A DNA stretch of 64,000 nt from a virus: IMG/VR virus record IMGVR_UViG_3300027747_003534, positions 97,521 to 161,520 of that record. One strand, 5' to 3'. The stretch's first letter is position 1. The number at the start of each line of letters is the position of its first letter. Below, piece by piece: positions 47,508 to 56,192 of this stretch. The translations under genes were made by a program, and so were the position numbers. Under the pieces are notes generated by a model. The model ran no database searches. It was not told the origin of the DNA and saw only the letters and a program-made list of their open reading frames with translations.

Positions 47508-48434
47508 TTATATAATAGGTTGGATGATTCCATTTCCCTCGTAGTCTCTTTTACCTGTATACTTCGCCTGCTTTAATTTCATAGCTTTTCTACTAAACGC
47601 TGAGATATAATCATCAGGTGTGCGAAGCATATTGTCAATTGCTGAGTTAGGATTTTTTCTAAAGTATGATAATAAGAGAGCGGCACAACCAACAGCGAAT
47701 GGTGTTGCCATACTAGTTCCACTCATAATAGCATATTTATTATCTGGAACTGAGCTGATTATGTTATGTCCTGGAGCTAAAAAATCTAATTCTGGGCCAC
47801 AACAACTAAATTCGCATATTTCTAAATTTTCATTAATTGCACCTATACTTATAGTATCTTCATATCTTGCTGGATACTGTATTCCAGAATTTATTCCGCT
47901 ATTTCCAGATGCACAAAAAATAATTACATTTTTATCTTTAGCATATCTAATGGCTTTTCTCATCTGTTCGCATGGAGATTCCGAACCTAGAGACATTGTG
48001 ATGATGTCTGCACCATGCTCTACAGCCCACAGGATCGCCTCTGTGACATTTTTATTATCTCCTCGACCATCGCCGTCGAGAGCTTTAACTGGCATGATCT
48101 TGCATCTTGGAGCTATTCCAACCATTCCCAAGGTATTATTACATGCAGCAATAGTTCCTGAAACATGAGTACCATGAGAATTATCATCTATAGGATCTTT
48201 ATTTTTGTTCAAAACATTATATCCATCAATAAGATTGTCTTTAATATCTTCATGATATAGATCGCATCCTGTGTCTATAACTGCTACTTTAACTCCCTCT
48301 CCTTGAGAGTTTTTCCAGCTTTTTTCTATATTAAATTGTTTAATTGGCCATGGATAAAACTGTATAGAGTTTCTATCTAAACCAAATAAATCTTGTTTAA
48401 TGTGGGGCAATAACCCGCATTCTCCTCTTCTCAT
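47508..48434 (-). CDS. Subtilisin-like S8 serine protease
   Basis: VAVIDTG, HGTHVSG, SGTSMATP catalytic triad. Confidence 0.96.
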   Translation of the reverse strand: MRRGECGLLPHIKQDLFGLDRNSIQFYPWPIKQFNIEKSWKNSQGEGVKVAVIDTGCDLYHEDIKDNLIDGYNVLNKNKDPIDDNSHGTHVSGTIAACNNTLGMVGIAPRCKIMPVKALDGDGRGDNKNVTEAILWAVEHGADIITMSLGSESPCEQMRKAIRYAKDKNVIIFCASGNSGINSGIQYPARYEDTISIGAINENLEICEFSCCGPELDFLAPGHNIISSVPDNKYAIMSGTSMATPFAVGCAALLLSYFRKNPNSAIDNMLRTPDDYISAFSRKAMKLKQAKYTGKRDYEGNGIIQPII

Positions 48435-49171
48435 TTTTCCATCTCTTCTTTTATCCAGTTATAGTATAAACTTAATCTTGTATGACAACTTTCATCTCCA
48501 TACGTTGAGTCTGATTTTCCATCGTATCCTATAACAGAAGAATTAATACCGGCTAATTTATTGTCTATAAATAAACCGCCGCCACTGTCTCCACTACATA
48601 TCAAAAATTCTAATTGAGTAAATTTATCTTTTCTTTTTGATGGTGAGCATATCAGTACATTTTTTTCTATTCTATCTATAAAATTAGAACCTGCTCTTCT
48701 GTTATCATCATGTATTTTAGTTCCTGTAATAAAATTTCCAGTAAATCCCCAACCAGATATTGAGCAAATCTTCCCAACTTCATCAGAATTTTGATAAATT
48801 TTTGGATAATATTTTAAATCTATTTTTTCTTCTATATGCCCTAATGCTATATCATCATAGCCAAAAGTATGGGTTTTATAATTTTTGTGAATAATTATTT
48901 TATCTATATTGTATTTTTTTTTATTCATTATTATTGTACAGCTCTGACTTCCCTCAACAACGTGAGCAGCTGTAATTATCCATTCGGCATCTATTACTAC
49001 CGCAGAACCACAAGATAAGCCTTTTCCATCAAAACAACAAATTTTTACAACACTATCAAATTTTGATCCATACTCTATATATTTTTGGTCTGGTGTTTCA
49101 GGATCTATTGTTCCAGCAAAAACCTTACTTAAAAATAGACAAAGAACCATGAGTGCTATTAATTTTTTCAT
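48431..49171 (-). CDS. Secreted trypsin-like S1 serine protease
   Basis: Signal peptide; TAAH, DIAL, GDSGG. Confidence 0.93.
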   Translation of the reverse strand: MKKLIALMVLCLFLSKVFAGTIDPETPDQKYIEYGSKFDSVVKICCFDGKGLSCGSAVVIDAEWIITAAHVVEGSQSCTIIMNKKKYNIDKIIIHKNYKTHTFGYDDIALGHIEEKIDLKYYPKIYQNSDEVGKICSISGWGFTGNFITGTKIHDDNRRAGSNFIDRIEKNVLICSPSKRKDKFTQLEFLICSGDSGGGLFIDNKLAGINSSVIGYDGKSDSTYGDESCHTRLSLYYNWIKEEMEK

Positions 49172-49189
49172 GGAAATTTCCTTAACAAA

Positions 49190-49495
49190 CTATGGTCTGT
49201 TTTTTACCTTATCTAAATACACCGAGCAATCCTCTATGACCATTTTATTGTAACTCTTAAAATTCATTAAATGACCGAATAATAAATGACAAGGATTAGC
49301 ACAAAGAGTAACTAAATTTGAAGGGGTCAGCTCAAGTTCTGGACTAATATGTACTGGTATTTTATGATGAACTTCCAGTTTTGAGTTTCGTCCACAAGCA
49401 GCACATAAAGGATATTTTTTTAGATGTTCTTTACGAACATTGGTCCACTTAGGAGATCTTGTGGCATATCTTATTTTTTTAAAAAATCCAAACAT
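49190..49495 (-). CDS. Small HNH endonuclease
   Basis: RSPKW..CAACG..EVHH..NLVTLC..CH. Confidence 0.88.
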   Translation of the reverse strand: MFGFFKKIRYATRSPKWTNVRKEHLKKYPLCAACGRNSKLEVHHKIPVHISPELELTPSNLVTLCANPCHLLFGHLMNFKSYNKMVIEDCSVYLDKVKNRP

Positions 49496-49540
49496 AAATT
49501 TATATTCCCATATAAAATAGTTATTATAGCCAATTTATAT

Positions 49541-49562
49541 TGTACACCATAATTAGTGTATA
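49541..49562. promoter_or_regulatory. Back-to-back divergent phage-type motifs
   Basis: GGTGTACA (minus, 49541-49548) and AGTGTATA (plus, 49555-49562) between divergent genes. Confidence 0.55.
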
Positions 49563-49601
49563 GCAATAGTGTTAATATGCTTAAAGGGACTCTAAAACCT
49601 C

Positions 49602-50294
49602 ATGATTTCAATACTTACTTTAACTTACCATAGATATCATATTCTTGAAGAAGCTATCTATTCATTTTTATCTCAACATCAATCATTATATGATTGTGAA
49701 ATGGTAGTAATAAACGACTCCACATCTGTAGAATATTCTATAACAAATAATTTGTCTAAAGTACAGATTATCAATACTAAAAACAGATTCCCATCACTAT
49801 CGTCTAAACTTGAATTTGGTTATAAACAGTGTAAGTATGAAAACATCTACAGGCTAGATGACGATGATTTGTTGTGTCCTTGGGCTATAAAAAATGCTTG
49901 TGATGATATATTAAATAATCCTGGCCATGAGATTTATAGATCCCATGGACACTACTTCTTTACTGATAATAAATTTATTCAAATTAGTAATAACATAAAT
50001 AATGGAAATATTTATACAAAAAAATACCTAGATAGAATTACTTTTCCTAATAAAACATCTAATGAAGATGTAGAAATAACTTTTGAAAATAATGCTAAAA
50101 TTTATACATCAAAACTAAAACCAACAATGATATATAGATGGGGTATGAATACTTATCATATATCTGGACTAGGCACAGGCAATAGTATATTAGACAAAAT
50201 AGATAATATAGTAAATAAAGAAGAAGGAAAAATTATTTTAGATCCAAAATTTAAAAATAATTACTACCAAGAATTGCCGGACTATGTCAAATAA
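49602..50294 (+). CDS. GT2 glycosyltransferase
   Basis: ISILTLTY.R, VVINDS, RLDDDD, ED. Confidence 0.85.
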   Translation: MISILTLTYHRYHILEEAIYSFLSQHQSLYDCEMVVINDSTSVEYSITNNLSKVQIINTKNRFPSLSSKLEFGYKQCKYENIYRLDDDDLLCPWAIKNACDDILNNPGHEIYRSHGHYFFTDNKFIQISNNINNGNIYTKKYLDRITFPNKTSNEDVEITFENNAKIYTSKLKPTMIYRWGMNTYHISGLGTGNSILDKIDNIVNKEEGKIILDPKFKNNYYQELPDYVK

Positions 50295-51069
50295 AATAAC
50301 ATGTAATCTTGCTGGGAGATTGGGAAATAATTTATTTCAAATAGCATATTGTACAGCTATCTCCATAGATAATGATTTAAAATTTTTTATTCATAAAGAT
50401 AATCCTGGTGTTTATCATGAATATAAAAATAATATTCTCAAAAATATTTCATATTTAGATATTGATATTTCAGACTATACTCATGTTTTAGTATCTCATA
50501 ATTATAATCCAATTAAAATACCTAAAAATAAAAACTTAATTTTAACTGGATATGGTCAAACAGATAAATATTTCAATCACCATAAATCATTAATATGTTC
50601 TATGTTTGGACCCAATGATGATTTTATAAAAAAAAATAAACATATAATATCCAAGAATACTACAGCCATACATGTTAGACGTGGAGATTATTTATATTAT
50701 CCAAATATTCATCCAGTTATTTCTATAGAGTATATAAATTATTGTACAAAACTTATTGATTCTGATTCTTATATGATAAGTAGTGACGATATTGATTGGT
50801 GCAAATCAAATATAACTTTGCGAAATGCTACTTTTATTGATAAAACAGAACCTCTAGAAACACTATGGATATTATCCATGTGTAATAATTTTATTTTATC
50901 TAATTCTTCTTTCTCTTGGTGGTCAGCTTATTTATCTAAAACACAAGGAAAGGTCTTAATGCCATCTACTTGGTTTGGTCCAGAATTAAATATAACATGC
51001 GCAGACTTGGCTTGCTACGGATGGGATACTATTCCTACTTATTTCGATAATGGTCAAATTAAAGTATGA
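50284..51069 (+). CDS. Alpha-1,2-fucosyltransferase-like (GT11)
   Basis: GRLGNNLFQ, IHVRRGDY, SDDIDWC, SNSSFSWWSAYL. Confidence 0.9.
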   Translation: MSNKITCNLAGRLGNNLFQIAYCTAISIDNDLKFFIHKDNPGVYHEYKNNILKNISYLDIDISDYTHVLVSHNYNPIKIPKNKNLILTGYGQTDKYFNHHKSLICSMFGPNDDFIKKNKHIISKNTTAIHVRRGDYLYYPNIHPVISIEYINYCTKLIDSDSYMISSDDIDWCKSNITLRNATFIDKTEPLETLWILSMCNNFILSNSSFSWWSAYLSKTQGKVLMPSTWFGPELNITCADLACYGWDTIPTYFDNGQIKV

Positions 51070-52074
51070 TCACAACACCTTTGCTGCAATCAAACATCCT
51101 TTAGCAACTGCATGTAAGGGGTCCGCAGCATGTCTGACTACTTTAATCTTAAGTGGAAAATTATTATCTGCTAATTTTTTAGTAAATTCTTCGATATATC
51201 CATTAGCTTGAGATGTACCACCGGCTATAACTATAGTTAAAGCATCTTTGAATTTAGGTAAAGATTTATGACCAGTTAATGCAGCAGATAATTGTTTAGT
51301 TGTATAATCAATTAATCTTTCATAATAAGCTGACACAGCACCTAAAACTGGATTCTCTGTGGTTTCCCCGATTTTAAAACCACCGCCCTCCTTTTCTGCT
51401 TGAACAACACTGTCGGGTTCTCCTGTTGCCACAGCACTCATACGATCAATCCAGTCGCCACTCTTGGTGGTACTGAATACTACGGTAGGTTCACCATTCA
51501 ACATTACACAGACATTAGTCATTCCTGCTCCACAACTAATAGCTATGCCTGTGTATTCATCGTTTTCTAATTCGGCATAACAAAGAGCTTCTGCTTCATT
51601 AATTGATCTAGCACTATAACCACATTCCGCAAGAATAGTTTTGACAACATCTTCGTGGTATCCTACATCAAAATCTTCATCTTCTTGATCTACCGGTTGT
51701 GCTGGAACGCAGAATACCAATTTTTCACCCGGCTCTGAAGCTTTGCCCACTACTTCTTTAAGAATAAAAGCCAATACTCTTTTGGCATCTTTTTCTTTCG
51801 CTGAAACAACTCCTTTATACATTGGTCTTTTCGCTGTGTCATTTCTTTCTATGGCTTTTTCTATAGCGTCTTTACCTAAAAGAATAAAAGAACCATCGCT
51901 ATCTTTGATAAATACTTTTCCAGTTAATCCTTTCTCTATCATTTTTGTGGCAACTGGTGTCGTTGGTTTTATTACATAGAAAGCATCTCTAAAATCTTTA
52001 TATATTAAATTATTGTTTTCTTCTTTTGATAAAACTATATAGCTTGTTCCAACATCTAATCCGCATCCAGCCAT
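51070..52074 (-). CDS. Actin-family ATPase, volactin-like
   Basis: GLDVGT phosphate-1, INEAEA connect-1, GIAISCGAGMTNVC phosphate-2, IAGGTS adenosine, PLHAVAKG connect-2. Confidence 0.85.
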   Translation of the reverse strand: MAGCGLDVGTSYIVLSKEENNNLIYKDFRDAFYVIKPTTPVATKMIEKGLTGKVFIKDSDGSFILLGKDAIEKAIERNDTAKRPMYKGVVSAKEKDAKRVLAFILKEVVGKASEPGEKLVFCVPAQPVDQEDEDFDVGYHEDVVKTILAECGYSARSINEAEALCYAELENDEYTGIAISCGAGMTNVCVMLNGEPTVVFSTTKSGDWIDRMSAVATGEPDSVVQAEKEGGGFKIGETTENPVLGAVSAYYERLIDYTTKQLSAALTGHKSLPKFKDALTIVIAGGTSQANGYIEEFTKKLADNNFPLKIKVVRHAADPLHAVAKGCLIAAKVL

Positions 52075-52077
52075 AAA

Positions 52078-52410
52078 TCACCTCTTTAAATTTTTAAGTT
52101 TATTTATTGATCCAGATATGTCATCTCCTGAGTTTTTTATATCGCCCAAAGATTCATATTTTTTTTCTAAATTATCAGTTTTTATATCAGTTACAACTTT
52201 AGTATTATCAATAGATATTTTTTTATTTTTTGTTACACTATGATCAAAAAAATTTTTCGGCTTATCTACTATCAAATTAGATACACCGTTAACGGACTTG
52301 GACAAGCCGTAAAAATAGCCTATTAAAAACAAACACACCCCTATTGCTAGGAGTGTGATTGAGAATAAAATAATAGTTGGTAAATTTATAGCTATTGATA
52401 TTTCATTCAT
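52078..52410 (-). CDS. Membrane-anchored protein adjacent to the actin gene
   Basis: N-terminal TM; C-terminal helical tail DDISGSINKLKNLKR. Confidence 0.7.
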   Translation of the reverse strand: MNEISIAINLPTIILFSITLLAIGVCLFLIGYFYGLSKSVNGVSNLIVDKPKNFFDHSVTKNKKISIDNTKVVTDIKTDNLEKKYESLGDIKNSGDDISGSINKLKNLKR

Positions 52411-53326
52411 TTTTATATGAGCCTATCACCCTGCCTTTCTGAGTTCTAACAACATATCCTTTTCTGACTAGATATGGCTCAATACTATTTTCTATAGTTT
52501 CAATAGCAATACCAGTCAAAGAAGATATACTTTTTAGCCCAAGAGCAGAGCCTTTATGTTTAATAAGAACCGTTAAATACATCTTATCATACACATCCAA
52601 ACCGTTCTTATCAATCCCCTGATTATTGAATATATCATCAACAGTCATTTTTTGATCTGTATAATAGGCAATACAATTTTTGTACCACTGTAATCTTCCA
52701 TTAAGAATACGAGGCGTACCTTTGCTTCTTTTTGCTATCTCAAATAGATCAGTATCATTAATCATTAGTCCGAGTTTTTCAGCGTTTAACCTTGCCAGTT
52801 TAGCTAGATCATCATCGCTATAGAAACATAAATGTTCCTTAATTTGAAATCTATCATAAAAAGGTTGGCTTAATGATCCCCCGCTAGTTGTAGCCCCAAC
52901 AATTGTGAATTGAGGAAGTTCAATAGTCTCTGGTTTCTCTTTATCTTCATTATCTTTGTCTTTAACTGTGATATTAAGAACAAAATCTTCCATAACAGGA
53001 TACAAAAATTCTTCTACAATCTTAGGAAGTCTATGGATCTCATCAATAAACAAAACCGATCTTGGCTCTATGCCTACAATGTATGGCAAAATATTTTTAA
53101 TACTGCGAATAACAGCACCATTGATAGTATATAGGTTCACTCCCATTTCTGTAGCTATTGCACTAGCTATAGTAGTCTTACCAAGACCGGGAGGGCCGTC
53201 TATTAAAACATGAGGCATCACACCACCAGAGTTTTTACAACCAGAAACGATGATGCTAAGACGATTAGTAACTTGAGACTGACCAACAATCTCACTAAAG
53301 CATGTGGGTCTAATATTATTAGCCAT
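52403..53326 (-). CDS. ruvB: Holliday junction branch-migration ATPase RuvB
   Basis: IRP, GPPGLGKTT, FIDEIHRL, YPVMED, GATT, DRF, GTPR, EPYL, RTQKGR. Confidence 0.95.
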   Translation of the reverse strand: MANNIRPTCFSEIVGQSQVTNRLSIIVSGCKNSGGVMPHVLIDGPPGLGKTTIASAIATEMGVNLYTINGAVIRSIKNILPYIVGIEPRSVLFIDEIHRLPKIVEEFLYPVMEDFVLNITVKDKDNEDKEKPETIELPQFTIVGATTSGGSLSQPFYDRFQIKEHLCFYSDDDLAKLARLNAEKLGLMINDTDLFEIAKRSKGTPRILNGRLQWYKNCIAYYTDQKMTVDDIFNNQGIDKNGLDVYDKMYLTVLIKHKGSALGLKSISSLTGIAIETIENSIEPYLVRKGYVVRTQKGRVIGSYKNE

Positions 53327-53369
53327 AATTTTCTCCAAAATAGTTTTATAATTCCAAAATAAATATCAA

Positions 53370-53792
53370 TTAAGAATCTTTGTTTGTTTTATCATCTTCT
53401 TTTACCCAAAAAATAAAATCGTTTTTGTCAGTATCAAATGCGCTCTCCAATACTCCTTTGCTAACCAGAACATTTAGAATATTGCTAACCATTCTACTAT
53501 TAAGATCTTCTATTATTGATTGAAGTATCTTGTCTGTTAGACAATATCTTATTCTGTTTGTTTTTTTATTTATTTGTTTCTTAGCATGATTTTTAATAAT
53601 AGTAGCAGCTTCATCGTGTGTTAGTGTTTGATCCATCTCTTCTGTTTCTTTTTTTGTCATTTCATAGAGAGATGCGGTCATTGAATCGTCTGCTATCTCA
53701 TTTACCTCTCCGAAAAACTTAAATACTAAAGATCTAGAATGATCAACAAACTCATCAAAATTATTGATAAAAAACCATCTGTCATTGTTCAT
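53370..53792 (-). CDS. Hypothetical protein
   Basis: Likely start MNNDRWF at 53792; LVSKGVLESAFD wing-like end. Confidence 0.6.
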   Translation of the reverse strand: MNNDRWFFINNFDEFVDHSRSLVFKFFGEVNEIADDSMTASLYEMTKKETEEMDQTLTHDEAATIIKNHAKKQINKKTNRIRYCLTDKILQSIIEDLNSRMVSNILNVLVSKGVLESAFDTDKNDFIFWVKEDDKTNKDS

Positions 53793-54058
53793 GATATTGG
53801 TGCAGTGCCATCCTCGTATTTTGGTATATGAACCCACTCCAGTTTAGCAGAGAACTTGGGCTTGTAAATGGTGATGATGCTGTGCGTTTTGCTATCTTTT
53901 TCTATTACAGTTTCAGCTATTGCTCTATCCTCATTAAGAACTTTAGCTATGTTGACATTAACCTCTAACATTGTATTAAATCTATTATTATATTGGACCC
54001 TATTAAAGATTATCTCAAAATAAGTATTCATATTTATTTCCTTAGTTGCGACTGACAA
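53789..54058 (-). CDS. Hypothetical protein
   Basis: ORF in operon. Confidence 0.5.
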   Translation of the reverse strand: MSVATKEINMNTYFEIIFNRVQYNNRFNTMLEVNVNIAKVLNEDRAIAETVIEKDSKTHSIITIYKPKFSAKLEWVHIPKYEDGTAPIS

Positions 54059-54282
54059 TTGTTATGCTTATCTACAAAAGTTCTTTCAAAACCTAGCTCT
54101 GCTAGTATTGGCATCTTATGAAAGGTAATAGTAAATTTTACATTTCCAGAATCATCAGTCATTTTTGTCCATTCTACTCTTTGTGCTTTACTCATATGAG
54201 TAGCTAAGTCATAAGCAATATATGGAGTTTCTGTCAATGAACCAAAAACCATCGCTAAATATAAAAGTATTGCTGGTAACAT
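54034..54282 (-). CDS. Small exported/membrane protein
   Basis: Hydrophobic N-terminus. Confidence 0.55.
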   Translation of the reverse strand: MLPAILLYLAMVFGSLTETPYIAYDLATHMSKAQRVEWTKMTDDSGNVKFTITFHKMPILAELGFERTFVDKHNNCQSQLRK

Positions 54283-54292
54283 ACTTGTTCTT

Positions 54293-54700
54293 CTAGTTTA
54301 AGATATCAAACATCCCTTTATAATAATTTGGCTGTTGGAGAAAGTGAACCGCATGTGTTCTTAGGTGATTTTTATATTCATTATGTATCTTATCATGAAT
54401 AAAATATTGAGTTTTATATATCGGTTCTTTATAATGATTATTCCCCAAGTACAGGGAGTTTTTGAAGTTCCCTGATTTGGAGAAGTAATCATTCACAGGA
54501 ATCGACTTGAATGGAAAACCATGAACATACCATATATTAGGAGAAGATTCTACCATACCATTTAGAGTATCATATAGCATCTTACCCCAAGCATCCCACG
54601 CATCGGGATCAAACTTAAAGTATTTTTTATAATGACTCTCTAAATTGTCCTGACTACTATCGTATTCATCATAGTTGTCATCTTCATAATCTTCGTTCAT
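54293..54700 (-). CDS. Hypothetical protein
   Basis: 135 aa, acidic N-terminus. Confidence 0.6.
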   Translation of the reverse strand: MNEDYEDDNYDEYDSSQDNLESHYKKYFKFDPDAWDAWGKMLYDTLNGMVESSPNIWYVHGFPFKSIPVNDYFSKSGNFKNSLYLGNNHYKEPIYKTQYFIHDKIHNEYKNHLRTHAVHFLQQPNYYKGMFDILN

Positions 54701-54705
54701 ATAAC

Positions 54706-54963
54706 TTACCTATAACTGTATCTATTTTGAGAAGCCACATTCTTACGATTTCGTCCTCTGCGACCCTTAAAACCTAATCTTCTTATGATATTACAAATTG
54801 TTTGCCAACTAAGATAATACTTATTGCCACAGAACGTATTCTTTTGAAAGTAATAGTAAAGATCTCTTGCTGATCCCGACTCATTCATTAGTTCAATAAA
54901 TTTCTTCTTAGCTTCTTCATCATATAATAAAAGTTGCAAAAGAGGATTAGTATGTCTACCCAT
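54706..54963 (-). CDS. Small basic, possibly DNA-binding protein
   Basis: HTH-like SWQTICNIIRRLGFKGRRGR; AAGGAG Shine-Dalgarno. Confidence 0.6.
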   Translation of the reverse strand: MGRHTNPLLQLLLYDEEAKKKFIELMNESGSARDLYYYFQKNTFCGNKYYLSWQTICNIIRRLGFKGRRGRNRKNVASQNRYSYR

Positions 54964-54986
54964 TTGTTTTCTCCTTGTTTTTATAT

Positions 54987-55033
54987 GGTTGTGTCAAAGG
55001 GTATAGGATATTCCATACCCTTGACACAGAACC
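54987..55033. repeat. Long inverted repeat downstream of the RepB-like gene
   Basis: TGTGTCAA(A)GGGTAT-AGGATATTCC-ATACCCTTGACACA. Confidence 0.8.
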
Positions 55034-55034
55034 C

Positions 55035-56192
55035 TCAACCGATACAAAACTTATCACTAATTTGAGATGCAAGGTCTTTAGCAGAATTAGACAGAAACCT
55101 GTTGTTGCTAAAGTATAGCGGTGTTGAGACTTGATTAAGGAACTCCACGACCGTTTTTAAAAGCTTGGTCTGCTGACCATCAAGGTTCATATCCTCGTCA
55201 GGCAGAGCATCCTGTGAGTCCGTAGACACATCCTCGTCATCCACCAGTGTATCATCAATAGGATTAACTGGCATTGGATCACCATAAGTCTTTTGACCAT
55301 AGTGACCAGCAGCATATCCATATACAGCTTTAGTAGTTACATCTTCTGTACTATTGGTATATACTTCAGGATTCAAAGTTCTCATCTGGTTCAGAATGTT
55401 TGTAGCAACATTTACTGATACCGGAACCCCAGTAACATCAGACTGCTTATAAGCCTGAGCATAACCCTTATACCATTCGTCACTACACTTCTCAGGGATA
55501 ATCTGTAGGGTAGCCGGTTGACCAGTAAGAGCAGACTTTAGATCAGCAACATTAATAGGTTGACCAGTGCTACCGGGAAGCAGACTTGTAAAGTAAGGAG
55601 CCTTCTTCTCCCACTCTTTACGCCACCAAGTGTAAGGAACACGATAGATCTGATTTGGTTTAATAGCTCGCGGATCACCACCAAAATAGTTCACCAGCTT
55701 TTTCTGCAAGCCGTTCCAGAAAGTCTTATTTGAGCCAACAATGTTTCTTGAAGCATCATCAAAAATCCAGTAGCACTGATAACCATTACGAGTATCAACT
55801 ACCCAACTGGGCTTAACAGGAAACTCGTTGATCTTCTTTAGAAACTTCTTTTTGTGCTGCATAACAACGCTAGGCTTAAAATAAGTACCATCAGCATTTC
55901 TTCCAGCATCCATGTCGCAAAAACAGCAAGTAAATTGCTTGATAGCATAAAGCTTGCGACCACCATTTACATAGAAGTAAGCATCAGAATGATTATTAAT
56001 ATTTGCTTCAATCATCTCATTAAGATTATTAGTATGATTCATACTACTAATCTTCTTACGAGGATTACCATTATAAACAAAGATGTGACTTTGTTTAAAA
56101 GAATTCAAAAAAGTATCTCTAATACCACGATGATGATCAGCCGGATTATTATTTTTATCAAACGGATTAAAAGCCAAAGTATCGCTAAACAT
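55035..56192 (-). CDS. RepB-type (AEP-superfamily) primase domain protein
   Basis: YFYVNG, FCDMD, PSWVVDTRNGYQCYW, GGDP, IYRVP. Confidence 0.75.
   Translation of the reverse strand: MFSDTLAFNPFDKNNNPADHHRGIRDTFLNSFKQSHIFVYNGNPRKKISSMNHTNNLNEMIEANINNHSDAYFYVNGGRKLYAIKQFTCCFCDMDAGRNADGTYFKPSVVMQHKKKFLKKINEFPVKPSWVVDTRNGYQCYWIFDDASRNIVGSNKTFWNGLQKKLVNYFGGDPRAIKPNQIYRVPYTWWRKEWEKKAPYFTSLLPGSTGQPINVADLKSALTGQPATLQIIPEKCSDEWYKGYAQAYKQSDVTGVPVSVNVATNILNQMRTLNPEVYTNSTEDVTTKAVYGYAAGHYGQKTYGDPMPVNPIDDTLVDDEDVSTDSQDALPDEDMNLDGQQTKLLKTVVEFLNQVSTPLYFSNNRFLSNSAKDLASQISDKFCIG

What the first reader, a model, noticed from the sequence alone, without database searches (positions are those of the whole stretch)
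51070..52410. Volactin-like actin paired with a membrane-anchored protein: candidate phage cytoskeletal system
Seen: 51070-52074 has all five actin-fold motifs, with an atypical phosphate-2 loop (GIAISCGAGMTNVC, Ser where most actins have Asp). It also carries KRPM..G, PAQPVD, YHEDVV and GDWID blocks. From memory these blocks match the haloarchaeal cell-shape actin volactin better than MreB, ParM or FtsA. The gene immediately upstream (3-bp gap) encodes one TM helix plus a cytoplasmic tail ending in a short amphipathic helix, and it overlaps ruvB. Known: phage filaments such as PhuZ tubulin and the AlpC/AlpA actin pair position phage DNA. Inference: a two-component membrane-tethered filament that positions replication/assembly sites or reshapes the host cell.
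Basis: partly seen in the sequence, partly recalled or inferred. Interest (0 to 1): 0.82.

Follow-up and report, generated by a model that had tools for sequence, protein, structure and literature searches.

The report
Phage volactin-type actin with membrane adaptor
An uncultured 161-kb freshwater phage encodes a very highly conserved actin-like protein of the "volactin" family. The gene just upstream encodes a small membrane-anchored partner, and the partner's conserved tail also ends the partner genes of the same actin in planctomycete bacteria. The phage therefore probably builds membrane-tethered actin filaments, which no paper I could search describes.

Summary
Window 51070-52074 (-) encodes a 334-aa actin-fold protein. 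It scores 213.9 bits, full length, on Pfam Volactin (cut-off 35), against 25.6 bits for MreB, which is below that family's cut-off. The AlphaFold model is confident (pLDDT 97). Its best structural matches are all filament formers: MamK, BeeR, MreB and F-actin.

The upstream gene (52078-52410) encodes a 110-aa protein with one TM helix, a variable linker and a conserved 46-residue tail. It lies immediately upstream of the actin in 76 of 80 related viral contigs. In the other 4 a roughly 600-nt insert separates them; in the one I read (L026) it is a GIY-YIG gene. The actin is 83-98% identical across these contigs. The adaptor is 35-86% identical.

The main result here is that the tail motif (..LE..N..VK..G.I..L.KLK.LKGG) also ends the gene next to volactin homologues in other phage lineages and in Planctomycetota/Omnitrophota. 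A profile found 64 ORFs out of 8,942, all beside an actin gene.

No centromere repeats, integrase or tubulin were found.

Polymerisation, tail-actin binding and the biological role are inferred, not shown.

The scan has reported this same system before on other DNA (24 notes, at least 21 genomes), and I found no paper on it. I rate it a new variant of a known kind, interest 0.72.

The parts
51070..52074 (-). Volactin-family actin-like ATPase, 334 aa
52078..52410 (-). Adaptor gene, 110 aa: N-terminal TM anchor, variable linker, conserved C-terminal tail
   Evidence: A homologue lies just upstream of the actin in all 80 related viral loci, directly adjacent in 76. It has no Pfam family. A database search found 173 clusters, all unnamed.
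52300..52383 (-). Predicted transmembrane helix of the adaptor (residues about 10-37), likely N-out/C-in
   Evidence: AF2 predicts helix 10-37 with pLDDT 83-88. The sequence varies between relatives but stays hydrophobic. The Lys-rich flank after the helix suggests the C-terminus is cytoplasmic; this applies the positive-inside rule and is an inference.
52081..52218 (-). Conserved adaptor tail (residues 65-110): isIDd.K.V.dIkTdglEKKY..LGe.K.S.enIs.SiNKLKNmK
   Evidence: Median identity is 63% here, against 22% for residues 1-40 and 31% for 41-64. A profile of this block finds the actin-adjacent genes of other phages and of Planctomycetota.
52078..52086 (-). Shine-Dalgarno-like AAGAGGTGA, including the adaptor's TGA stop, 3 nt before the actin ATG
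   Evidence: Read directly from the sequence. It suggests translational coupling of the two genes.
52403..53338 (-). RuvB-like AAA+ ATPase whose end overlaps the adaptor start by 8 nt; same operon, but not part of the conserved pair
   Evidence: Pfam RuvB_N E 9.8e-48, RuvB_C E 1.4e-17. The overlap is shown. It is present upstream in 76 of 80 close relatives but absent next to the pair in L165, L166 and L170-L176.

Best explanation
This is a two-gene phage cytoskeletal module. The 334-aa protein is a genuine member of the volactin family of actins. It most likely binds and hydrolyses ATP and assembles into filaments in the infected cell. The 110-aa protein made just before it, by coupled translation, sits in the cytoplasmic membrane through one N-terminal helix. 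It reaches into the cytoplasm with a flexible linker and a conserved tail that ends in a basic amphipathic helix (..SINKLKNLKR). The tail most likely docks on the actin and so tethers filaments or filament ends to the membrane.

Shown: family membership, the fold, co-inheritance of the pair, and conservation of the tail across phage lineages and planctomycete partner genes.

Inferred: polymerisation, the tail-actin contact, the membrane topology, and the purpose. My best guess for the purpose is spatial organisation of phage replication or assembly relative to the membrane.
For: Family and fold:
- Pfam Volactin scores 213.9 bits over the full length.
- The protein is 35% identical over 98% of its length to the haloarchaeal homologues.
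- The AF2 model has pLDDT 97.
- The nucleotide-binding residues are intact and family-invariant: D7, G9, E160, G182, G184, G285, G286.
- Volactin itself forms dynamic filaments whose tips touch the membrane (PMC10869688).

Conservation:
- The actin has median 86% identity across relatives. RuvB has 72%, the adaptor 50%, and the other neighbours 45-55%. This is the pattern expected of a polymer with many constrained surfaces.
- Inteins occur in 15 of 150 family representatives, all inserted in or next to the phosphate-2 loop. This marks that loop as functionally critical.

Pairing:
- All 80 related viral loci carry the adaptor just before the actin. The gap is -3 to +46 nt (mostly -3 to +3) in 76, and a ~600-nt insert (a GIY-YIG gene in L026) separates them in 4.
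- The adaptor's end contains a Shine-Dalgarno-like sequence for the actin.

Tail:
- A profile built only from the window-clade tails returned 12 ORFs out of 8,942 at E<10. About 10 of them are the ORF ending just before a distant actin gene. By my own estimate about 1% would be expected by chance.
- The second-round profile found 64 ORFs at E<1, all in an actin neighbourhood. Many were not in the training set and scored E 1e-4 to 2e-6.
- The same tail is present in independent phage lineages, with a TM helix (L164, L170) or without one (L165, L166, L171-176).
Against: - No experiment exists on any phage member, and only one family member (Haloferax volactin) has been shown to form filaments.
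- The AF2 run on the natural read-through fusion of the adaptor and actin gave mean pLDDT 67 and only 57-76 in the tail. The tool gives no contact map, so the predicted contact is untested here.
- The family replaces the canonical phosphate-2 Asp with Ser, so the ATPase chemistry may differ from other actins.
- Several phage lineages and the planctomycete partners lack a TM helix. Membrane tethering is therefore a feature of this lineage, not of the module as a whole.
- The host is unknown, so no cell-biological context can be given.
Confidence: 0.6

Rival explanations
1. Host take-over. The membrane-anchored filament acts on the host rather than on phage cargo. It would change cell shape or block division so that the infected cell becomes a better factory.
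For: Volactin's only known role is in cell shape, the rod-to-disk transition (PMC10869688). The family is common in Planctomycetota, with 62 of 151 sampled genomes above the cut-off, and it sits there beside a partner with the same tail. A phage copy could therefore plug into a host network. The adaptor carries no DNA-binding or capsid-related domain.
Against: The host is unknown. On the tree the phage actins form their own clade, apart from the planctomycete and haloarchaeal clades, so this is not a recent host copy. At 35-40% identity, co-assembly with a host actin is doubtful. This reading shares every structural step with the best explanation and differs only in the target.
Confidence: 0.2
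2. The small protein regulates or sequesters the actin rather than anchoring it. Its tail would cap or depolymerise the actin, as arcadin-2 does to crenactin.
For: Arcadin-2 is encoded in the same gene cluster as crenactin. Its C-terminal peptide binds crenactin's hydrophobic groove and depolymerises the filaments (PMC5173319; the gene-cluster detail is from my own knowledge). The tail here is likewise a short C-terminal amphipathic helix. Several lineages keep the tail but have no TM helix.
Against: In this lineage the TM helix is retained in all 54 distinct adaptor sequences, although its sequence drifts. That argues that membrane attachment matters. The planctomycete partners are long coiled-coil proteins, which look more like scaffolds than inhibitors.
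Confidence: 0.12
3. A non-polymerising scaffold. The actin-fold protein works as a monomer or dimer that clamps the cytoplasmic tail of a bitopic membrane protein, as PilM does with PilN and FtsA with FtsN.
For: PilM and FtsA appear among the Foldseek hits at ranks 32 and 41. An actin-fold protein bound to a peptide of an adjacent single-pass membrane protein is exactly the PilM-PilN arrangement (from my own knowledge).
Confidence: 0.1
4. A ParMRC-like partition system that segregates the phage genome as a plasmid-like prophage.
For: Actin plus an upstream small adaptor gene is the ParR-ParM order. Some phages and plasmid prophages carry ParM-type systems (PMC8026635).
Against: There are no iterated or centromere-like repeats within 49000-55200. 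The adaptor has a TM helix and no DNA-binding family. The complete record has no integrase. The genome carries rIIA/rIIB, a DnaE-type polymerase and RNR, which fits a lytic phage. Pfam gave no ParM hit.
Confidence: 0.04

Closest known systems
Volactin (VolA, HVO_2015) of Haloferax volcanii with its neighbour HVO_2016 (CdpA-like, DUF7139); Pfam PF25216 (PMC10869688, PMC12126565)
   Same: - Same Pfam family, full length.
- About 35% identity to the haloarchaeal homologues.
- Same Ser-containing phosphate-2 loop and the same GDW(I/V)D block.
- In the three haloarchaeal loci I read, a membrane protein is encoded just upstream on the same strand. It has TM segments, an acidic linker and a small cytoplasmic end.
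- Volactin filaments touch the membrane with their tips.
   Different: - The window's actin is phage-encoded and sits in a separate clade.
- The partner has one TM helix and 110 aa, not four TM segments and about 300 aa, and it has no DUF7139 domain.
- Homology of the two partners is not established. hhalign pairs KLKkLkgg with GLRqLqGG at P 0.0058 but only 6% probability.
- No shape phenotype or filament has been shown for the phage protein.
Planctomycetota/Omnitrophota volactin homologues with their coiled-coil neighbour (undescribed, as far as I could find)
   Same: Same Pfam family, at 268-302 bits. The adjacent gene ends in the same tail, LESN..VK..GGI..L.KLKKLKGG.
   Different: The partners are 250-450 aa cytoplasmic coiled-coil proteins with no TM helix. 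The actins often carry N-terminal extensions. They form a separate clade, with support 95-98.
AlpC/AlpA of prophage CGP3, Corynebacterium glutamicum (PMC4446434)
   Same: A phage-borne actin-like protein working with a dedicated small adaptor gene. It is needed for efficient viral DNA replication.
   Different: AlpA binds phage DNA. Here the adaptor is membrane-anchored, has no DNA-binding domain, and there are no repeats. AlpC was not recovered as a relative: tblastn against the phage collection found only two huge-phage records. The Volactin profile did not ring in the C. glutamicum control genome.
ParM/ParR, AlfA/AlfB, MamK/MamJ, MreB/RodZ and crenactin/arcadin-2
   Different: None is in the same sequence family: MreB scores below its cut-off, there are no ParM or MamK family hits, and there are no PDB sequence hits. 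The adaptor differs in architecture from all of their partners.
PhuZ/TubZ tubulin spindles of jumbo phages (PMC8314001, PMC13282480)
   Same: A phage-encoded cytomotive filament that organises the infected cell.
   Different: PhuZ has a tubulin fold, not an actin fold. This genome has no tubulin. No phage-nucleus context is evident.

Membership tests
Volactin (Pfam PF25216) | Scores above the curated cut-off over the whole profile | tested here: met
   213.9 bits against a cut-off of 35, profile positions 3-321 of 321. The six-frame search gave the same result.
Volactin (Pfam PF25216) | Four-subdomain actin fold with intact nucleotide-binding motifs, including the family's S-x-G-A-G-M-x-N loop and GDW(I/V)D block | tested here: met
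Volactin (Pfam PF25216) | [quoted passage not shown] | not testable with these tools
   Known only for Haloferax volactin (PMC10869688).
Volactin (Pfam PF25216) | Adjacent CdpA-like (DUF7139) membrane protein, as in haloarchaea | tested here: inconclusive
   An adjacent membrane protein is present, but it has one TM helix and no DUF7139 domain. hhalign gave P 0.0058 and probability 6% for the tail motif only.
Volactin adaptor tail module (defined here from phage and planctomycete partners) | The gene next to the actin ends in the ..LE.N..VK..G.I..L.KLK.LKGG tail | tested here: met
   Found in all 80 close relatives. Also found in L164-L166 and L170-L176 and in about 60 Planctomycetota/Omnitrophota loci.
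ParMRC type II partition | A DNA-binding adaptor and centromere repeats upstream, with an actin of the ParM family | tested here: not met
   No repeat array in 49000-55200. The adaptor has a TM helix and no DNA-binding family, and there is no ParM hit.
MreB/Mbl | Scores above the Pfam MreB_Mbl cut-off | tested here: not met
   25.6 bits against a cut-off of 27, covering residues 60-210 only.
AlpC/AlpA (CGP3) | Sequence relationship to AlpC, and an adaptor that binds phage DNA | tested here: inconclusive
   I held no AlpC sequence to compare. The phage-collection tblastn returned only two huge phages. The adaptor has no DNA-binding domain.
PhuZ/TubZ | Tubulin/FtsZ fold | tested here: not met
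   The protein has an actin fold, and the genome has no tubulin family hit.

The most novel reading that the evidence does not exclude
The adaptor tail (..KLK.LKGG) is an ancient linear motif that binds volactin, and it defines a two-part cytoskeletal module shared by many lineages of large aquatic phages, by Planctomycetota/Omnitrophota and perhaps by haloarchaea. In these phages the module would be the first actin-based, membrane-anchored cytoskeleton of lytic phages, an actin counterpart of the PhuZ tubulin spindle.
Probability: 0.45. Interest if true: 0.85.

Novelty: new variant of a known kind. Interest (0 to 1): 0.72.

Why it matters
Phage cytoskeletons are known mainly from tubulin (PhuZ) and from a single prophage actin (AlpC). 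Here an actin of a different family is among the most conserved genes of a very abundant group of freshwater phages: over 2,800 protein clusters, on contigs of 140-240 kb. It comes with a dedicated partner.

The shared tail motif gives a concrete and cheap hypothesis, that a peptide binds the actin. It can be tested in vitro without a cultured host.

The motif also links the phage system to an apparently undescribed actin-plus-coiled-coil module in Planctomycetota. Many members of that phylum lack FtsZ (PMC6952346), and its cytoskeleton is poorly understood. Finally, the motif offers a candidate for how archaeal volactin filaments meet the membrane.

Tried and rejected
- phmmer against PDB sequences gave only noise, E about 0.75.
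- PHROGs had no family for the actin and only a weak hit (E 0.002) for the adaptor.
The provenance of several clade members is therefore unknown.
- Viral scans with P0127, P0139 and P0140 found no close relatives.
- I modelled the natural read-through fusion of the adaptor and actin (TGA read as Gly, 26 paired rows). Mean pLDDT was 67 and no contact output is available, so it says nothing about binding. It only confirms the layout: TM helix, disordered linker, short strand, C-terminal helix.
- I looked for a host clue in the rarely present GT11 gene. All 120 listed relatives are unnamed metagenomic proteins.
- The listing of cluster members gave taxon names for only two clusters, both Planctomycetota.
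- The homology test between the adaptor tails and the haloarchaeal DUF7139 neighbours gave the right motif pairing but only 6% probability (round-3 HMM E 11-28). I do not claim homology.
- I rejected the ParMRC and PhuZ-type readings.
- I rejected the idea that the atypical phosphate-2 Ser marks a dead enzyme, because it is a family trait shared with filament-forming volactin.
- The planctomycete 'Ca. Uab amorphum' actin-like protein described in PMC6906331 is a eukaryote-like actin, not this family.

Full report
WHAT IS THERE

The window is bases 97521-161520 of a 161,520-bp IMG/VR virus record that CheckV rates complete. GC content is about 31%. Nearly all genes lie on the minus strand.

The region carries these genes:
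- rIIA and rIIB, a DnaE-type polymerase and ribonucleotide reductase
- a RuvB-like ATPase at 52403-53338
- a 110-aa ORF at 52078-52410
- a 334-aa ORF at 51070-52074
- then, in most relatives, an HNH protein, a trypsin-like protease and an S8 protease

I noticed an N-terminal signal-peptide-like sequence on the trypsin-like protease when reading.

The three upstream genes are tightly coupled. The RuvB stop overlaps the 110-aa ORF's start, as ATGAATGA. The 110-aa ORF ends AAG AGG TGA, followed by 3 nt and the actin ATG, so a Shine-Dalgarno-like AAGAGGTGA sits in its last codons.

THE ACTIN

Sequence family:
- Pfam gives Volactin (PF25216) at E 5e-63 and 213.9 bits, against a cut-off of 35, over the whole profile.
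- MreB_Mbl (25.6 bits) and Salactin (22.7 bits) fall below their cut-offs.
- tblastn finds haloarchaeal megaplasmid homologues at 35% identity over 98% of the length.

Structure:
- With a 55-sequence alignment of diverse relatives, AlphaFold2 gives pLDDT 97.1 and pTM 0.93.
- The top 50 Foldseek hits are MreB, BeeR, MamK, actin/Arp, crenactin, FtsA and PilM, with no sugar kinase or Hsp70 among them.

Motifs:
- Family-invariant residues include D7, G9, E160, G182, G184, D210, G285 and G286.
- The "atypical" Ser180 of the phosphate-2 loop is present in at least 90% of members, and the haloarchaeal proteins have it too.
- It is therefore a family trait and not a defect. Volactin, which has this loop, forms dynamic filaments in vivo (PMC10869688).

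HOW COMMON AND HOW CONSERVED

- The protein has 2,846 clusters at E below 1e-5, and the best 120 are 84-100% identical. They come from lake and other aquatic metagenomes, on contigs up to about 240 kb.
- In 80 related IMG/VR loci the actin is 83-98% identical (median 86%). RuvB has a median of 72%, the 110-aa protein 50%, and the other neighbours 45-55%.
- Among published phage genomes, only two uncultured huge phages carry a relative, at 33-34% identity.
- Fifteen of 150 family representatives are interrupted by inteins at four or more sites, all in or beside the phosphate-2 loop.
- In four close relatives an insert of about 600 nt lies between the two genes. In L026, the one I read, it is a GIY-YIG endonuclease gene.
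- These selfish elements typically target indispensable, highly conserved genes (my own knowledge).

THE PARTNER

A homologue of the 110-aa protein lies just before the actin in all 80 related viral loci. The gap is -3 to +46 nt, and mostly -3 to +3 nt, except in the four loci with the ~600-nt insert.

Its N-terminal hydrophobic helix keeps its hydrophobic character but not its sequence. The linker is variable. The last 46 residues are conserved, with median identity 63% against 22% for residues 1-40.

The tail consensus is isIDd.K.V.dIkTdglEKKY..LGe.K.S.enIs.SiNKLKNmK. It has no Pfam family, and its 173 database clusters are all unnamed.

THE TAIL IS SHARED WELL BEYOND THIS PHAGE GROUP

I built a profile from the window-clade tails only and searched all 8,942 ORFs of 40 aa or more in 88 distant loci. 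These were the huge phages, three metagenome contigs, 80 Planctomycetota/Omnitrophota loci and three haloarchaeal loci.

- Round 1. Twelve ORFs scored E<10. About ten of them are the ORF that ends just before the actin gene, and they match through their C-terminal end. Only about 1% of ORFs hold that position, so I estimate the chance probability at around 1e-18.
- Round 2. A second-round profile found 64 ORFs at E<1, all in an actin neighbourhood. Sixty lie directly upstream. Four lie about 1.5 kb downstream, in three Omnitrophota loci and one locus labelled Planctomycetia. Many were not in the training set and scored E 1e-4 to 2e-6.

The planctomycete partners are 250-450 aa coiled-coil proteins with no TM helix and no Pfam family. 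They end in LESN..VK..GGI..L.KLKKLKGG.

Other phage lineages have the tail too:

| Locus | Actin identity to window | Partner |
|---|---|---|
| L164 | 53% | TM helix plus ..DINKLKELKKR |
| L165 | 46% | no TM helix; ..ADKLKKMLKRR |
| L166 | 44% | no TM helix; ..IDKLRQLKK |
| L170 | not measured (67% to P0131, which is 38% to the window) | TM helix plus ..VDRLRRLLGK, separated from the actin by a 473-aa ORF |
| L171-L176 (IMG/VR contigs of 18-298 kb, three over 190 kb) | not measured (64-95% to P0125, which is 42% to the window) | ..KLEKLRKLKG |

In haloarchaea, a roughly 300-aa DUF7139 (CdpA-like) four-TM protein is encoded just upstream of the volactin homologue. This matches HVO_2016 beside HVO_2015 (PMC12126565). 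Profile-profile comparison aligns the KLKkLkgg motif with its GLRqLqGG segment, with P 0.0058 but only 6% probability. I treat that as suggestive only.

PHYLOGENY

I built a FastTree of 219 sequences and an IQ-TREE (LG+C20) of 73 sequences, and they agree.
- The window clade joins P0122/L164 (support 99), then P0123 and P0124 (96-97).
- These sit inside a clade (95-98) that holds every lineage I could place on viral contigs.
- The planctomycete sequences form their own clade (95-98).
- The haloarchaea sit elsewhere (99-100).

The phage gene is therefore not a recent copy of either cellular group. The family is common in Planctomycetota: 62 of 151 sampled genomes score above the cut-off.

WHAT IT IS NOT

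- It is not a partition system. There is no repeat array in 49000-55200, the adaptor has no DNA-binding domain, and the genome has no integrase.
- It is not tubulin-based. The genome has no tubulin hit.

MECHANISM

I think a membrane-anchored adaptor holds volactin-type filaments through its C-terminal amphipathic helix. Known precedents for this kind of contact are ParR on ParM and arcadin-2 on crenactin (PMC5173319), and the tip-anchored volactin filaments seen in Haloferax (PMC10869688).

The contact itself is untested. My read-through fusion model was of low confidence and gives no contacts.

The cargo or target is unknown, and so is the host. The GT11 search gave no taxon names.

EARLIER WORK IN THIS SCAN

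The scan has already reported this system on other genomes. There are 24 notes in at least 21 genomes, and look-alike stretches occur in 101 windows of 67 genomes. Those reports reach the same reading. Some of them suggest planctomycete hosts, which I did not test.

I found no paper describing phage volactins:
- 17 papers mention volactin, and none of the 14 listed concerns phages by title or abstract.
- A 2026 jumbo-phage review and a 2026 review of giant viruses and large phages mention no phage actin.
- Further literature searches found nothing.

Noticed in passing
P0121, P0128 and 13 other representatives (family-wide); equivalent to window residues about 180-206, i.e. window 51457-51537: Inteins interrupt 15 of 150 volactin-family representatives at four or more sites. 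All the sites lie in or next to the phosphate-2 loop or the GDW block: S|CGAGM in seven, GAGM|C in three, before CGDW in three, and two others.
   Followed up: partly
L026:3399-4004 (also L008, L023, L027); L170:1587-3005: In L026 a 201-aa GIY-YIG-type homing endonuclease ORF lies between the adaptor and the actin. Three other close relatives have an insert of similar size that I did not read. In another phage lineage a 473-aa ORF occupies the same position.
   Followed up: partly
window 49602-51069 (+ strand): A GT2 plus GT11 glycosyltransferase pair lies on the opposite strand directly after the actin. GT2 is present in only 1 and GT11 in 3 of 80 relatives, so it is a recent insertion. In L083, L165 and L166 a GT9 heptosyltransferase-like gene also lies beside or near the actin-adaptor pair.
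   Followed up: partly
window 47508-49171 (-): A trypsin-like protease with an N-terminal signal-peptide-like sequence (48431-49171) and an S8 subtilisin-like protease (47508-48434) follow the module. The trypsin-like gene is in 69 and the S8 gene in 33 of 80 relatives. Secreted proteases are unusual in phages.
   Followed up: no
L084-L163 (Planctomycetota/Omnitrophota genome loci): Volactin-family actins are found in 62 of 151 sampled Planctomycetota genomes. They sit beside a 250-450 aa coiled-coil protein that has no Pfam family and ends in the conserved tail. This looks like an undescribed bacterial cytoskeletal pair. Many of the actins carry N-terminal extensions (zinc-ribbon or HTH-like) or are tandem duplications (P0126, 729 aa).
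   Followed up: partly
window 52403-53338 (-): A RuvB-like ATPase with the N-domain, AAA lid and C-terminal winged helix is translationally coupled to the adaptor. I did not look for a RuvA partner. PHROGs calls its relatives clamp loaders.
   Followed up: no
window 51067-51092 (-): A terminator-like hairpin overlaps the last codons of the actin gene. It may mark the end of the RuvB-adaptor-actin transcript before the inserted glycosyltransferase genes.
   Followed up: no
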